Virus record (IMG/VR): IMGVR_UViG_3300046464_000709
Coordinates: 52,806 to 116,805 of that record
Length of the DNA stretch: 64,000 nt
Source of the DNA: a virus
Reading direction: 5' to 3' (one strand)
The translations under genes were made by a program, and so were the position numbers. The notes beneath the pieces are model-generated. The model ran no database searches. It worked only from the letters and a program-made list of their open reading frames with translations, and had not been told where the DNA came from. Positions 7,834 to 59,304 of this stretch are shown one piece after another; positions within the stretch are counted from its first letter, which is position 1; the number at the start of each line of letters is the position of its first letter.

Positions 7834-7874
7834 TAAAGCTTGACTTGCCAAAATAAACTCATTAGTATAGTAAA

Positions 7875-8156
7875 ATGTTAAAGAATAAAAAATTCATCGC
7901 AAATGTTCATGTTTCTTCTATAGAGGGAAGACAAAAGCTTCCTTTGTGGAATACGAACACAAATTCGTTCATTGATACGCACATGACAAATAACATCTTT
8001 GAAATCGAAGCTGAAGACAAGCACGAAGTAAGAAGAAAAGTTAAGGCTCTCGTGAATAAGCTTCAAACCAAAGTTCAATTCAAGCGTGGTCTTGTGGGCA
8101 AAGAAGGCGATAATGCTATGTGGTACATCAACAGAATAACAGAAAAAAACTCTTGA
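7875..8156 (+). CDS. Small hypothetical protein
   Basis: TTGACT...TAGTAT, then 6 nt to the ATG. Confidence 0.6.
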   Translation: MLKNKKFIANVHVSSIEGRQKLPLWNTNTNSFIDTHMTNNIFEIEAEDKHEVRRKVKALVNKLQTKVQFKRGLVGKEGDNAMWYINRITEKNS

Positions 8157-17282: not shown

Positions 17283-17858
17283 CTATGCTGTCTTGCTGTA
17301 TTGCTTCCAGATTTCAAGATCAAGATCAGTAACGGATTTACCTAATTGGCGAGCAATGTTCTTGAAAATATTCGCGAAATAATGGTATGTATTCTCCTTC
17401 GTTGGCGTGCTCTTTGGGGCGTCCGTGTATCCTTGATCACGAAGGAACCTGAGGATATGAGTGTCGAGCATTGGTTCATCAAAGTCTTCGCGGCTATGAG
17501 AGAGAAAGAACCTTGCTGTCTTAAGCCCGATACCAGCGACTTCTAAAAGCCTGTTTAATGTAACCGTTTGAAGATCTTGAATCTTTGATACAGCAACATA
17601 AGAGTTGTATCTTTGCTTGTATGGACTAAGCTTAGCCCAATGCATAATCTCTTGGAGCCGGCCCAATTTAATTAATTTTCTTATACAATTAAATGGACTT
17701 GTTTCTTTTGTTATGTTTTTTGCTCTCTCTATGAACACTTCTAATTTAGGTGCTTCGATTGAACTTTTCTTTCCTGCTACATTAATACAGAATAGGATAA
17801 ATTCTTCTAATTCGTTGTGTGATCTATTATAGTTTGTTACTTCAGCTGGATTAATCAT
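17283..17858 (-). CDS. HhH DNA glycosylase (Ogg/endonuclease III-like)
   Basis: HhH motif VAGIGLKTARFFL followed by LDTHILRFL. Confidence 0.7.
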   Translation of the reverse strand: MINPAEVTNYNRSHNELEEFILFCINVAGKKSSIEAPKLEVFIERAKNITKETSPFNCIRKLIKLGRLQEIMHWAKLSPYKQRYNSYVAVSKIQDLQTVTLNRLLEVAGIGLKTARFFLSHSREDFDEPMLDTHILRFLRDQGYTDAPKSTPTKENTYHYFANIFKNIARQLGKSVTDLDLEIWKQYSKTA

Positions 17859-17876: not shown

Positions 17877-18131
17877 TTATTGTGCAATGTGAAATGCTTT
17901 ACGAAGGTTGTCGCATTCTTGTCCACAAAGAAATACTTCTCTGCAATAGTCAATGTTTTTTGACTCAATATGCTTGATGAGTTTTACTGCTTGATGAGCA
18001 GGAACTCGATCACGAGGCATGCCTCCCCATTTGATCACTACCCTCATGTGAGGAAAGTGTTCGTTGATTTCAGCAAGTTGAGCTGAGTTGATGTATCCGT
18101 AGTTCGCAAGAATGTTTTTTATTGTTTCCAT
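17877..18131 (-). CDS. Hypothetical protein
   Basis: Leaderless ATG at 18131 (METIKNIL) after TTGACA...CATACT. Confidence 0.6.
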   Translation of the reverse strand: METIKNILANYGYINSAQLAEINEHFPHMRVVIKWGGMPRDRVPAHQAVKLIKHIESKNIDYCREVFLCGQECDNLRKAFHIAQ

Positions 18132-18168
18132 GATATCTAGTATGACAGAATTAAAAGCAATGTCAAAC

Positions 18169-18211
18169 AAAAAAACCTGCCCAAGGAGAGAAAGAAAAAC
18201 CTTGGACAGGT
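18169..18211 (-). terminator. Terminator-like hairpin closing the ncRNA candidate
   Basis: ACCTGTCCAAGG/CCTTGGGCAGGT stem followed by a T-run on the - strand. Confidence 0.7.
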
Positions 18212-18234
18212 CTGAATGCATGATTAAGAAATAG

Positions 18235-18500
18235 ATGTGGGAAGGGATTACTGTATACCCTCGACTTTTCGGGATGAACATCAGTTCATTGTGTACCTAC
18301 TTTGCACTACAAATTAGACTTGGCATTCGTCATCGACTCATCCGATTGGACTCTATCGCTCCACCACAGAGAATTTGCATACCTTAGCCCGCTCATCACA
18401 GGCTTGCTCAGTCACCCACAGGAAGGATTATAAGCCCTTCCAAATAGAATGGAACGAGTCAATGTCCGATACTCAGCTATCAACTCATTGTTCCAAAAGT
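18235..18500 (-). ncRNA. Structured non-coding RNA candidate
   Basis: GC-richer stretch with no credible ORF, lying between a consensus promoter with boxA-like element and a terminator; hairpin at 18451-18494; GGAAGGG/CCCUUCC helix closing 18240-18441. Confidence 0.65.
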
Positions 18501-18561
18501 GTTTAAAATGTTAAAGATCGATTATTTATTTTGATTAAGTTTGTTTCTTAATTATGTATCT

Positions 18562-18590
18562 ATTATACTCTATTATTTGTTATTTGTCAA
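18562..18590 (-). promoter_or_regulatory. Perfect sigma70 consensus promoter
   Basis: TTGACA (18590-18585), 17 nt, TATAAT (18567-18562); boxA-like GATCTTTAACA at 18519-18509. Confidence 0.85.
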
Positions 18591-18829: not shown

Positions 18830-19315
18830 TTAATCATATGAATATTGAGCAAGTTTATTTAAGTTTTTTTTGTTTGCTTTTAACAAAGAATATGTTTGAA
18901 AAAGATCAGAAATAGATTTCTTTTTCGTGCTACAATTATTGTATTTTGGTAGGTAATTTAAAATAAATTTTCTTTCTGTTTCATTCATCCAAATAGTGCA
19001 AAGACTAGGATTAGGTTTACGAAGAGATATTCTTTTGGTTGAATTTTTACTTACAAGTTTAGCCTCTTTTTCTACTTTGCTCGGAGGAAGCAAATAATAA
19101 ACTTTACTAAAATTTTTGTTCGATTGATGCGACCCCACTCTTTGAAGTAGATTTGCTGTTTGCCCAACATAAACCACCTCATCTTCTTCTGAAACCAAGA
19201 AATAAACGCAACAAAATTCTTTTGCTTCTCCCTTGAATCTTCTTAATCTGCCAATCTTTTTAATTGATTGTCTGAATTCGGGGTTGATTATTTTTATAAA
19301 CTCTTCCGTTATCAT
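18830..19315 (-). CDS. GIY-YIG endonuclease-like protein
   Basis: CVYFL...VVYVGQT.NL..R...H, conserved E and PKYN. Confidence 0.75.
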   Translation of the reverse strand: MITEEFIKIINPEFRQSIKKIGRLRRFKGEAKEFCCVYFLVSEEDEVVYVGQTANLLQRVGSHQSNKNFSKVYYLLPPSKVEKEAKLVSKNSTKRISLRKPNPSLCTIWMNETERKFILNYLPKYNNCSTKKKSISDLFQTYSLLKANKKNLNKLAQYSYD

Positions 19316-32482: not shown

Positions 32483-32518
32483 TATTCTAATATAATATAT
32501 TTTTGTTTGTTTGTCAAG

Positions 32519-58169: not shown

Positions 58170-58536
58170 TGGTGGACGCGGCGGGAGTCGAACCCGCGTC
58201 TTTAAATTTTAAGAAGTAAAGGTCTACAAGTTTAGTTAATTTTTTTTAAAGTTGAGATATTAGCATCAAACTAATTGTTTCAATTATTTTCAGTTTGTGG
58301 AACAATTAAACTTTTTCTGTTTTGCAGATGGATGACCCCTCTTCTGCCGTATCTGCGTCTGACAGAGAGGGGAAGCAGCTTTAAGCTGCTAATGCGAGCT
58401 TTTCAGCTTTTGGGCTGAAAGCTACAACACGACTTTTATTTTTGCCATGTATGAACTTATGCCTTTTTACGAAGCCTGGCATCTCTTCGACTTGCACTAT
58501 ACTAAATTCAACTTAAATCGAATCCAGTGCGCGCCC
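58170..58536 (-). ncRNA. ssrA: tmRNA
   Basis: 5' GGGCGCG pairs with 3' CGCGUCC-ACCA including G3:U70; GGAUUCGA after the 5' stem; T-arm GGGUUCGACUCCC; tag frame 58446-58381 GKNKSRVVAFSPKAEKLALAA-stop; boxA-like GTTCTTTCACA upstream. Confidence 0.93.
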
Positions 58537-58553: not shown

Positions 58554-58739
58554 CTATTGCTTTTTGTTTTTCCCGAGATCGGCGAGGCCTTGCCCAAGAA
58601 TATATGCGAAAATAGGGCCAGTAATCTGCATCATTACCTCGGGCGTTAATCCCAAGTGAAAATAATGGTTTAGAACTGGGGCTGAGGCTGCGAATACAGC
58701 CGCCCAGAACTTTTTACTATGCCAGAATTTTTTTTCCAT
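58554..58739 (-). CDS. Small two-TM membrane protein, holin-like
   Basis: SKKFW followed by two hydrophobic segments and YILGQG..D. Confidence 0.55.
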   Translation of the reverse strand: MEKKFWHSKKFWAAVFAASAPVLNHYFHLGLTPEVMMQITGPIFAYILGQGLADLGKNKKQ

Positions 58740-58756
58740 AATATTTATTACACGAA

Positions 58757-59089: not shown

Positions 59090-59304
59090 AATTATTTGTT
59101 GTTATATAAATTTTTTAATTCTTCTATGAATAAAGGTTTTGCGCCTTTTGATAATTTGTTGTATTGTTTTTTTGCTCGAGAGTAAACTCTTTTGCTTGTT
59201 TCGTCCGCACAATTGGGATCGAAGTTTAAAATTTTTCTTATTTGTTTTGCTTTTGTTGCGTTCATGGGGTTAATTATAATATAAAATATAAAGAATGTCA
59301 AGTA

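What the first reader, a model, noticed from the sequence alone, without database searches (positions are those of the whole stretch)
18169..18590. Unannotated structured RNA gene with a perfect promoter, boxA and terminator
Seen: TTGACA-17-TATAAT (18590-18562) is followed by a boxA-like GATCTTTAACA (18519-18509); a similar element precedes the tmRNA. Next come about 270 nt of GC-richer sequence with no credible ORF: a 44-nt hairpin (18494-18451), then a roughly 200-nt domain closed by GGAAGGG/CCCUUCC (18441-18240), then a terminator (18211-18169). Established: boxA antitermination marks untranslated stable-RNA transcripts. I could not match it to RNase P RNA (no GAGGAAAGUC), tmRNA, SRP RNA or a tRNA. 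Inference: a highly expressed phage ncRNA, possibly of an undescribed class.
Basis: partly seen in the sequence, partly recalled or inferred. Interest (0 to 1): 0.8.

Follow-up and report, generated by a model that had tools for sequence, protein, structure and literature searches.

The report
Free-standing phage manA RNA gene
The flagged stretch is a self-contained gene for the already catalogued "manA" folded RNA in an uncultured marine T4-like phage, so it is not a new RNA class, but its gene-like layout argues that this RNA works on its own rather than as a switch for a neighbouring gene.

Summary
Window 18232-18441 (- strand) is a full-length match to Rfam RF01745, the manA RNA (71.3 bits, cut-off 55.2).

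One detail fails. GGAAGG pairs locally, and the domain is closed by UGUGGG/CCCACA.

In 13 unique related phage loci the layout is conserved. It runs promoter, small hairpin, boxA-like element, optional insert, manA, terminator. In 9 of 13 a fresh promoter then drives a leaderless next gene.

The same leader element abuts the tmRNA gene in 5 of 5 relatives. Across 5 related phage records, 7 of its 8 occurrences lie in those two leaders.

I found no antiterminator pairing. In other phages manA sits inside tRNA arrays.

Best reading: a stand-alone early phage RNA, not a riboswitch. A 2026 preprint reports that manA RNAs self-assemble into cages in vitro. The function remains unknown.

This scan has reached the same reading before on other genomes.

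The parts
18562..18590 (-). sigma70-type promoter TTGACA-17-TATAAT (-35 at 18590-18585, -10 at 18567-18562). The predicted start is near 18555 (inferred).
   Evidence: 12 of 12. A promoter of 10/12 or better stands at the same place in 12 of 13 unique related loci; the flank of L073 is cut.
18534..18552 (-). Small AU-rich leader hairpin (AUUAAG-AAACAAA-CUUAAU) in the position of an rrn boxB-type hairpin.
   Evidence: 5 pairs, 100% paired in 11 sequences. There is one compensatory change (G-C to A-U), which is the window's own. 42 of 500 shuffles score as high, so support is modest.
18503..18519 (-). boxA-like element GAUCUUUAACA plus the U-rich spacer UUUUAA.
   Evidence: It matches 10 of 11 positions of the published gamma-proteobacterial BoxA consensus GYTCTTTAANA (PMC5725501). 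It is present in 13 of 13 unique related loci, 41-92 nt after the start of the -35 box.
18451..18494 (-). 44-nt hairpin: a variable insert module between boxA and manA.
   Evidence: -15 kcal/mol, z -3.3; 7 of 13 unique loci have a closed insert of 44-140 nt at this spot and 6 of 13 have none.
18232..18441 (-). manA RNA (Rfam RF01745), full length. P1 is 18441-18436 with 18426-18421. The closing helix is 18420-18415 with 18241-18236.
   Evidence: 71.3 bits, cut-off 55.2, model positions 1-192 of 192, E 3.8e-16. (12 of 48 predicted pairs have compensatory changes within the clade). (closing helix complementary in 118 of 118 unique cores, with 4 pair combinations).
18169..18211 (-). Intrinsic terminator: stem 18211-18200 with 18186-18175, 13-nt loop, U-run 18175-18169.
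   Evidence: -19.8 kcal/mol, z -6.3; a terminator of -15 kcal/mol or stronger lies within 40 nt of the manA end in 9 of 12 clade loci, against 12 of 1008 control positions. The stem sequences differ between loci.
18139..18166 (-). Separate promoter TTGACA-16-CATACT (with TG) for the next gene. It begins 2 nt after the terminator U-run.
   Evidence: 10 of 12; 9 of 13 unique loci have such a promoter, with the ATG 6-7 nt after the -10 box.
17877..18131 (-). Downstream 84-aa gene of unknown function, apparently leaderless. It is not part of the RNA gene.
   Evidence: No Pfam or PHROG family and no tblastn hit in phage records.
58538..58554 (-). Second copy of the boxA-like leader element (GUUCUUUCACAUUUUAA), ending 1 nt before the phage tmRNA gene (58170-58536).
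   Evidence: the same element lies directly before the tmRNA in 5 of 5 clade phages, and 4 of 5 match GYTCTTTAANA at 11 of 11.

Best explanation
The stretch is a free-standing gene for a divergent member of the manA RNA family (RF01745) in an uncultured marine T4-like phage.

Shown:
- The RNA is manA.
- It lies between a consensus sigma70 promoter and a strong intrinsic terminator.
- The next gene has its own promoter.
- This layout is conserved in related phages.

Inferred:
- Host RNA polymerase transcribes a primary RNA of about 390 nt (about 18555 to about 18169) early in infection.
- The leader hairpin plus the boxA-like element recruit the host NusB/NusE (S10) complex, as in rRNA operons. 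That would carry the polymerase through this untranslated RNA without Rho termination and may help it fold. The phage uses the same device for its tmRNA.
- The terminator releases a discrete RNA that acts in trans. The most likely form is a self-assembled multimer, as a 2026 preprint reports for other manA RNAs in vitro. It does not sense a ligand to control the downstream gene.

The cellular target is unknown.
For: Identity:
- Rfam hit of 71.3 bits against a cut-off of 55.2, full length.
- Clade covariation and family-wide covariation of the closing helix.

Phage origin:
- rIIA, rIIB, DNA ligase and tail fibres are present.
- Relatives are IMG/VR virus contigs of 184-214 kb with one manA each in 5 of 5 records.

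Stand-alone unit:
- 12/12 promoter.
- Terminator in 9 of 12 clade loci against 12 of 1008 control positions, with unrelated stem sequences.
- A promoter directly after the terminator with a leaderless ATG in 9 of 13 loci.
- The downstream gene differs in L004, L005 and L073.
- No antiterminator complementarity in 10 of 10 loci, z from -1.13 to +0.97.

Leader:
- boxA-like element in 13 of 13 manA leaders and 5 of 5 tmRNA leaders.
- It matches the published consensus GYTCTTTAANA at 11/11 in 3, 10/11 in 7 and 9/11 in 3 manA leaders, and at 11/11 in 4 of 5 tmRNA leaders.
- 7 of 8 genome-wide matches of the 15-mer in 5 phage records lie in these two leaders, while the reversed control pattern gave 1 match.

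Family context:
- manA abuts co-oriented tRNA genes within 11 nt or less in 5 other viral loci. One example is tRNA-Thr, 2 nt, manA, 11 nt, tRNA-Ala in L014.

In vitro assemblies: preprint 10.64898/2026.07.01.735769.

RNA libraries: contigs identical to the window cover 18236-18538 in runs of two studies.
Against: - In most other manA loci a promoter abuts manA and a protein gene follows directly, the 5'-UTR layout on which the published cis-regulatory reading rests. This holds for clusters 7 and 8, which hold 102 of the 130 pattern instances.
- One RNA-library contig (X15 record 1, 17982-18265) runs from the manA 3' part across the terminator into the next gene. Read-through or DNA carry-over cannot be excluded.
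- The window's own boxA copy departs from the consensus at position 2 (A, not Y), and its tmRNA copy departs at position 8. The 11-mer is not enriched in the window.
- The host, and so its own rrn boxA, is unknown.
- NusB/E binding, transcript ends, abundance and multimer formation by this clade's RNA are all untested. This clade scores 71-88 bits against 166-195 for the cyanophage types, and its peripheral helices differ.
Confidence: 0.68

Rival explanations
1. manA is here what the literature proposed: a cis-acting riboswitch-like leader. The terminator at 18211-18169 would be its expression platform, and ligand binding would decide whether transcription reads on into the 84-aa gene.
For: - Weinberg 2010 rated manA as cis-regulatory and a probable riboswitch because it lies in 5' UTRs. 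Rfam types it Cis-reg.
- A terminator follows within 20 nt.
- An RNA-library contig bridges manA and the next gene.
- In clusters 7 and 8 genes follow manA directly.
Against: - The terminator's 5' arm has no better pairing with manA than shuffled arms in 10 of 10 loci.
- Terminator sequences are unrelated between loci, while the manA 3' strand is invariant.
- The next gene has its own promoter with a leaderless ATG in 9 of 13 loci and is not always the same gene.
- manA also sits between tRNA genes, with no protein gene to regulate.
- A preprint reports closed homo-oligomers, which is not typical of a riboswitch aptamer.
Confidence: 0.12
2. The conserved leader element is not a Nus-factor boxA. 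It would instead be a 5'-processing or stability signal, for example an RNase E/RNase P leader or a site for a phage protein, that marks where the mature stable RNA begins.
For: - It ends 0-1 nt before the tmRNA 5' end in 5 of 5 phages, whatever lies upstream: a promoter in 3 and an ORF stop in 2.
- In 6 of 13 manA loci it ends only about 10 nt before P1.
- The window's two copies each miss the consensus at one position.
Against: - In 7 of 13 manA loci a folded insert of 44-140 nt separates it from manA, while its distance from the promoter stays at 71-92 nt in 11 of the 12 unique loci with a visible promoter, and 41 nt in L003.
- It matches a published functional consensus at 9-11 of 11 positions, and the following spacer resembles the rrn spacer listed in PMC2724277 Table 1.
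- The two roles are not exclusive.
Confidence: 0.15
3. Chance resemblance or a decaying remnant: the stretch is not a functional RNA.
For: None beyond the AT-rich context, which makes promoter-like hexamers common (25 found against 19.3 expected in 5 kb).
Against: - E-value of 3.8e-16 against Rfam over the whole window.
- Compensatory changes in 12 of 48 pairs among 13 relatives.
- One copy in each of 5 of 5 related phage records.
- Present in RNA-library contigs.
Confidence: 0.01

Closest known systems
manA RNA motif (Rfam RF01745; Weinberg et al. 2010, PMC2864571; alignment revised in Rfam 14.3, PMC7779021; cryo-EM assemblies in preprint 10.64898/2026.07.01.735769)
   Same: - Full-length covariance-model match above the curated cut-off.
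- Same P1 hairpin, closing helix and conserved cores: GUGACUGA, GUGGUG, CUGAUG, GGGUAUACAGUAAUCCC.
- Marine phage origin.
   Different: - A divergent subclade: 71-88 bits against 166-195 for the cyanophage-type copies, with the outer P7-type helix not matched.
- It is not in a 5' UTR. It has a leader with a boxA-like element, its own terminator, and a separate promoter for the next gene.
- I saw no mention of terminators, tRNA neighbours or boxA for manA in the passages read.
ROOL and GOLLD RNAs (phage/prophage RNAs that form RNA-only nanocages; Kretsch et al. 2025, PMC12286853)
   Same: - Phage-borne.
- Unknown function.
- Often beside tRNA genes.
- Homo-oligomeric closed assemblies in vitro (for ROOL/GOLLD; for manA).
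   Different: - Much larger. One search gives more than 800 nt for many GOLLD members; about 600 nt for ROOL is my recollection. manA is about 210 nt.
- No Rfam match to either family here.
- A likeness of lifestyle, not a family relationship.
rRNA-operon antitermination leader (boxB hairpin, boxA, spacer; NusB/NusE/NusA/NusG/SuhB complex) and BoxA-regulated genes (Baniulyte et al. 2017, PMC5725501)
   Same: A small hairpin followed by a boxA-consensus-like 11-mer and a U-rich spacer, near the start of an untranslated transcript.
   Different: - It stands before a ~210-nt phage RNA and a phage tmRNA, not rRNA.
- The window's copies have one mismatch each.
The phage's own tmRNA gene (RF00023, window 58170-58536)
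   Same: It carries the same leader element directly upstream, in the window and in 4 relatives.
   Different: An unrelated RNA. In the window it follows an ORF, with no nearby promoter of 10 of 12 or better; the nearest is the 12/12 promoter at 59301.

Membership tests
manA RNA (RF01745) | Covariance-model score at or above Rfam's gathering score, over the whole model | tested here: met
   71.3 bits against 55.2, model positions 1-192 of 192, E 3.8e-16.
manA RNA (RF01745) | Local P1 hairpin followed by a long-range helix that closes the multi-helix domain, kept by compensatory changes | tested here: met
   95.5% of cells paired, 3 pairs with compensatory change, 0 of 500 shuffles as high. The closing 5-mer is complementary in 118 of 118 unique cores, with 4 pair combinations.
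manA RNA (RF01745) | Conserved single-stranded and loop cores of the consensus (GUGACUGA, GUGGUG, CUGAUG-type loop, GGUAnnnAnnAAUCC) | tested here: met
   Alignment to the model. The columns are invariant in 13 clade sequences.
manA RNA (RF01745) | All peripheral helices of the consensus | tested here: inconclusive
   The outer P7-type helix and part of P5 are marked as non-standard pairs in the model alignment. The clade's own consensus fold leaves that stretch unpaired.
manA RNA as a cis-regulatory 5'-UTR element or riboswitch (published reading) | Lies in the 5' UTR of the gene it controls, with an expression platform that overlaps or competes with the aptamer | tested here: not met
   A terminator is followed by a separate promoter and a leaderless ATG. 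There is no antiterminator pairing above shuffled controls in 10 of 10 loci.
manA RNA as a cis-regulatory 5'-UTR element or riboswitch (published reading) | Binds a small-molecule ligand | not testable with these tools
   No ligand is reported in any passage I read.
Self-assembling RNA (manA decamers and 60-mer cage of the 2026 preprint) | Homo-oligomer formation through kissing loops | not testable with these tools
   The preprint's construct sequences are in supplements that I could not open. No RNA-RNA complex tool was available. The GUGGUG loop and the UGCCA loop are complementary by eye, which is not a test.
rrn-type BoxA (NusB/NusE site) | Match to the consensus GYTCTTTAANA (PMC5725501) | tested here: inconclusive
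   The window's manA leader matches 10/11 and its tmRNA leader 10/11. Relatives match 11/11 in 3 of 13 manA leaders and 4 of 5 tmRNA leaders. The consensus was derived for gamma-proteobacteria, and the host is unknown.
rrn-type BoxA (NusB/NusE site) | Located in the transcribed, untranslated leader, promoter-proximal | tested here: met
   41-92 nt after the start of the -35 box in 12 unique loci. It is almost confined to the two long ncRNA genes, at 7 of 8 sites in 5 phage records.
rrn-type BoxA (NusB/NusE site) | Binds NusB/NusE and confers resistance to Rho | not testable with these tools
   This needs biochemistry or genetics.
Intrinsic terminator | GC-rich hairpin directly followed by a U-run | tested here: met
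   12-bp stem, -19.8 kcal/mol, seven U. Conserved as a structure in relatives.

The most novel reading that the evidence does not exclude
manA is not a riboswitch at all. It would be a phage-made, trans-acting, self-assembling RNA particle, a small counterpart of ROOL and GOLLD. A group of marine T4-like phages would produce it early from a dedicated 'stable-RNA cassette': a consensus promoter, an rrn-mimicking hairpin plus boxA leader that borrows the host Nus antitermination and RNA-folding machinery, and a terminator. The same cassette serves the phage tmRNA. The 5'-UTR and tRNA-array copies in other phages would be alternative ways of making the same free RNA.
Probability: 0.3. Interest if true: 0.75.

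Novelty: new variant of a known kind. Interest (0 to 1): 0.45.

Why it matters
manA has been an orphan 'riboswitch candidate' since 2010, and no ligand or function is reported in the passages I read. A 2026 preprint shows that it builds RNA-only decamers and a 60-mer shell in vitro, but says nothing about its biology.

A phage clade in which manA is a discrete, terminated gene with an rRNA-style leader gives genomic grounds to treat it as a trans-acting stable RNA. So do the other phages that place it between tRNA genes.

The clade also offers a clean system for testing this: defined ends, one copy per genome, and a leader that can be mutated. The shared leader on manA and tmRNA further suggests that phages borrow host Nus-factor antitermination for their own non-coding RNAs.

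The RNA class itself is not new, and this scan has reported the same layout before in other genomes.

Tried and rejected
- blastn of the locus and of the manA core against 50,697 phage records found no real match. tblastn of the downstream 84-aa protein found none either. rIIA finds only relatives below 32% identity, so no cultured relative or host could be named.
- No whole genome is held for the window.
- The genome-contig scan with the degenerate pattern was badly chosen. It says nothing about bacterial hosts.
- Of the 130 pattern instances from viral contigs, the small clusters are partly false. 9 of the 12 small-cluster loci scanned had no manA above the cut-off. I dropped them from the later counts of 121 instances and 118 unique cores.
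- A third window match to the 15-mer (7870-7884, 1 mismatch) lies antisense over the start of a + strand ORF and was set aside as chance. The eighth genome-wide match (G003:200443) lies in DNA that looks like the antisense of a coding region and has no Rfam hit.
- A T4 MotA-box reading of the leader element was considered by eye and dropped. No -10 box stands at the required spacing. The MotA consensus is recalled, not tested.
- RNA libraries: none of the four RNA runs has a contig over 18540-18650, the promoter and the end of the upstream gene. This is a gap in contigs and is not evidence of a transcript start. Contig breaks at 18444 and 18236 carry loose ends that match relatives' flanks, so they are strain-variation breaks, not RNA ends. 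Depth was not used.
- The literature hits PMC7029224 and PMC5473149 held only the word-start 'mana' ('manage') and say nothing on manA RNA. The search for boxA with tmRNA found nothing relevant.
- Supplements were closed. Weinberg 2010 Additional files 1-3 (manA contexts) and the preprint's supplementary figures and sequences may already show terminators, tRNA neighbours or the constructs' relation to this clade.

Full report
What is there.
On the - strand the window reads, in order:
- a perfect TTGACA-17-TATAAT promoter (18590-18562);
- a small AU hairpin (18552-18534);
- an A-rich run;
- GATCTTTAACATTTTAA (18519-18503);
- a 44-nt hairpin (18494-18451; -15 kcal/mol, z -3.3);
- a 210-nt GC-richer domain (GC about 0.45 against 0.18-0.31 just upstream);
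- a 20-nt linker;
- a strong intrinsic terminator (18211-18169; -19.8 kcal/mol, 0 of 200 shuffles as good).
Two bases after the U-run a second promoter begins (18166-18139, 10 of 12, with TG). The ATG of an 84-aa gene lies 7 nt after its -10 box. No credible ORF lies inside the unit.

Identity.
Rfam's manA model (RF01745) matches 18232-18441 (-) over its whole length. The score is 71.3 bits against a gathering score of 55.2, with E 3.8e-16 for the whole window. The other Rfam hits above cut-off in the window are a tmRNA (58170-58536) and two tRNAs.

One structural claim fails. GGAAGGG does not close the domain by pairing with the distant CCCUUCC. On 13 related sequences that pairing is kept in 74.7% of cells, with no compensatory change. 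The local P1 hairpin plus the UGUGGG/CCCACA closing helix is kept in 95.5% of cells, with three covarying pairs. Across 118 unique manA cores the closing 5-mer is always complementary, in four different pair combinations. RNAalifold on the clade alone recovers the Rfam architecture, with 12 of 48 pairs showing compensatory changes.

The organism.
The window encodes rIIA, rIIB, an ATP-dependent DNA ligase and tail-fibre proteins. Its best protein matches in cultured phages are below 32% identity. It is an uncultured marine T4-like phage, and 14 seawater DNA runs hold at least half of the sampled words of the locus. No genome is held for it, and I could not name a host.

Relatives.
An exact 17-mer from the manA core found 12 IMG/VR loci, and 11 of the 12 carry a full-length manA at 74-88 bits. 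That made 130 instances in all, 125 of them unique, falling into 14 clusters at 75% identity.

Rfam scans of 19 of these loci gave the following:
- The two big clusters (82 and 20 instances) are the classical cyanophage-type manA, at 166-195 bits.
- 9 of the 12 small-cluster loci scanned are false pattern hits, which I dropped.
- The window belongs to a separate clade of 16 instances and 13 unique sequences. It scores only 71-88 bits, so it is a divergent subclade.
Each of 5 related phage records, three of them complete at 184-214 kb, has exactly one manA.

Conserved gene layout in the clade (13 unique sequences).
- A promoter of 10 of 12 or better stands upstream in 12 of 13; the flank of L073 is cut.
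- A small hairpin UUGAG/CUCAA follows. The window's UUAAG/CUUAA is the one compensatory variant.
- A boxA-like element is present in 13 of 13.
- Either a linker of about 10 nt (6 of 13) or a closed insert domain of 44-140 nt (7 of 13, including the window's hairpin) comes next.
- Then comes manA.
- A terminator of -15 kcal/mol or stronger starts within 40 nt in 9 of 12 testable loci, against 12 of 1008 control positions on the same strand. Its sequence differs from locus to locus.
- In 9 of 13 a promoter follows directly, with the ATG of an ORF of at least 79 aa 6-7 nt after the -10 box. That gene is not always the same one (L004, L005, L073).

The leader element.
Baniulyte et al. 2017 derived the BoxA consensus GYTCTTTAANA for gamma-proteobacteria (PMC5725501, passages). 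PMC2724277 Table 1 lists the rrn boxA plus spacer.
- The manA leaders match the consensus at 11/11 in 3, 10/11 in 7 (including the window) and 9/11 in 3 of the 13.
- The same element ends 0-1 nt before the tmRNA gene in 5 of 5 clade phages, matching 11/11 in 4 and 10/11 in the window.
- In the window alone the 11-mer is not enriched (18 matches against 22.5 expected at 1 mismatch or fewer).
- The 15-mer TCTTTMAYATTTTAA matches exactly only at the two RNA genes.
- In 5 related phage records a 15-mer pattern has 8 matches, 7 of them in manA or tmRNA leaders, while its reversed control has 1.
- In manA genes its distance from the promoter is nearly fixed (71-92 nt from the -35 start; 41 nt in L003). 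Its distance to manA varies with the inserts. That fits a promoter-proximal loading site better than a processing mark for manA.
Binding of Nus factors is inferred, not shown.

Stand-alone RNA or switch?
- The terminator's 5' arm pairs with manA no better than shuffled arms in 10 of 10 loci (z -1.13 to +0.97).
- The linker is 12-21 nt in 9 of those 10 loci, and 87 nt in L005.
- The next gene has its own promoter.
- Elsewhere in the family, manA abuts co-oriented tRNA genes within 11 nt or less in 5 viral loci. These are L014 on both sides, L126, L056, L024 and L078; in L041 the gap is 46 nt. They come from 121 instances considered, of which only 11 loci hold any tRNA. There manA can only be a product of tRNA-type processing.
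- Against this, most cyanophage-type copies have a promoter abutting manA and a gene following directly. That is the basis of the published cis-regulatory reading (PMC2864571, passages).
- 25 of the 82 instances in cluster 8 instead have a sequence-conserved hairpin plus U-run after manA.

RNA data.
Contigs from three RNA-library runs of two studies cover manA, and two contigs identical to the window extend 5' to 18519 and 18538, through the insert hairpin and boxA. One contig bridges the terminator into the next gene. Contigs cannot show ends, strand or level, and DNA carry-over was not controlled.

Literature.
- manA was described in 2010 as a probable riboswitch from marine metagenomes, T4-like cyanophages and two gamma-proteobacteria.
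- Its Rfam alignment was corrected in release 14.3 (PMC7779021, passages).
- It has been annotated in cyanophage S-CREM1 (PMC9964418, passages).
- A July 2026 preprint reports cryo-EM structures of manA octamers, decamers and a 60-subunit icosahedral-like shell built from pentamers through kissing loops (10.64898/2026.07.01.735769; abstract, outline, passages and section 8). Its main text has no occurrence of 'terminator', 'tRNA' or 'in vivo'.
- ROOL and GOLLD are phage or prophage RNAs, often near tRNA islands, that form nanocages (PMC12286853, passages).
- My searches found no paper describing manA as a terminated stand-alone gene, inside tRNA arrays, or behind a boxA. Supplements were closed.

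How it most likely works.
Host sigma70 polymerase starts near 18555. The leader hairpin and the boxA-like element load NusB/NusE, as on rRNA operons, which would protect this untranslated RNA from Rho and perhaps assist folding. The terminator releases an RNA of about 390 nt, which may be trimmed to the manA core. This RNA then acts in trans, plausibly as a multimer.
- Shown: identity, promoter and terminator anatomy, conservation, and absence of an antiterminator.
- Inferred: timing, Nus dependence, ends, assembly and target.

Verdict.
This is a known RNA family in a gene-like setting that differs from its published description. It is a new variant of a known kind, not a new class. Earlier follow-ups in this scan reached the same reading on other genomes (e1-5860023, e1-6031902, e1-5932872, e1-5936184). 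I saw those notes only after my own analysis.

Noticed in passing
window, whole - strand (e.g. promoters at 32517, 23324, 42254, 18166): Early genes look leaderless. Of 47 sigma70-like promoters scoring 10/12 or better on the - strand, 19 have the ATG of an ORF of at least 40 aa exactly 6-7 nt after the -10 hexamer. These include rIIB, DNA ligase and a 339-aa endonuclease. The gene after manA shows the same in 9 of 13 relatives.
   Followed up: partly
L129, L008, L010, L007, L005 (manA leaders of relatives); absent from window 18520-18552: 4-5 nt in the loop of the leader hairpin are complementary to a segment just 5' of the boxA-like element, with four different sequence pairs: GGAU/AUCC, GAGGC/GCCUC, GGGC/GCCC and AGCU/AGCU. 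This suggests a pseudoknot in the leader. It was read by eye and not counted formally.
   Followed up: partly
L014:12365-12842 and L126, L056, L024, L078: manA is embedded in or abutting phage tRNA arrays, with gaps of 2-11 nt and the same strand.
   Followed up: partly
cluster-8 loci such as L039, L027, L054, L107: A sequence-conserved hairpin (GACCUAAGAUGCAACUC...GAGUCGGGCAGAUGGUC) plus a U-run follows many cyanophage-type manA copies, ahead of a talC-like gene (naming recalled from its MKIFLDTADT start). It could be a terminator or a further conserved RNA module.
   Followed up: no
window 58555-58740 and 58170-58536: The phage tmRNA (tag GKNKSRVVAFSPKAEKLALAA) follows a small ORF directly, with no promoter of 10 of 12 or better nearby. 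The nearest is the 12/12 promoter at 59301. It is probably co-transcribed with that ORF.
   Followed up: partly
window 18830-19315 and 17283-17858: A GIY-YIG domain protein lies two genes upstream of the RNA gene, and an Ogg-HhH-like (8-oxoguanine glycosylase fold) protein lies downstream.
   Followed up: no
L142 (genome contigs, record titled as a Methanobacteriota MAG): This was the only real manA among the 120 genome-contig pattern hits (nhmmer E 8e-48). It is probably a phage contig binned into an archaeal MAG.
   Followed up: no
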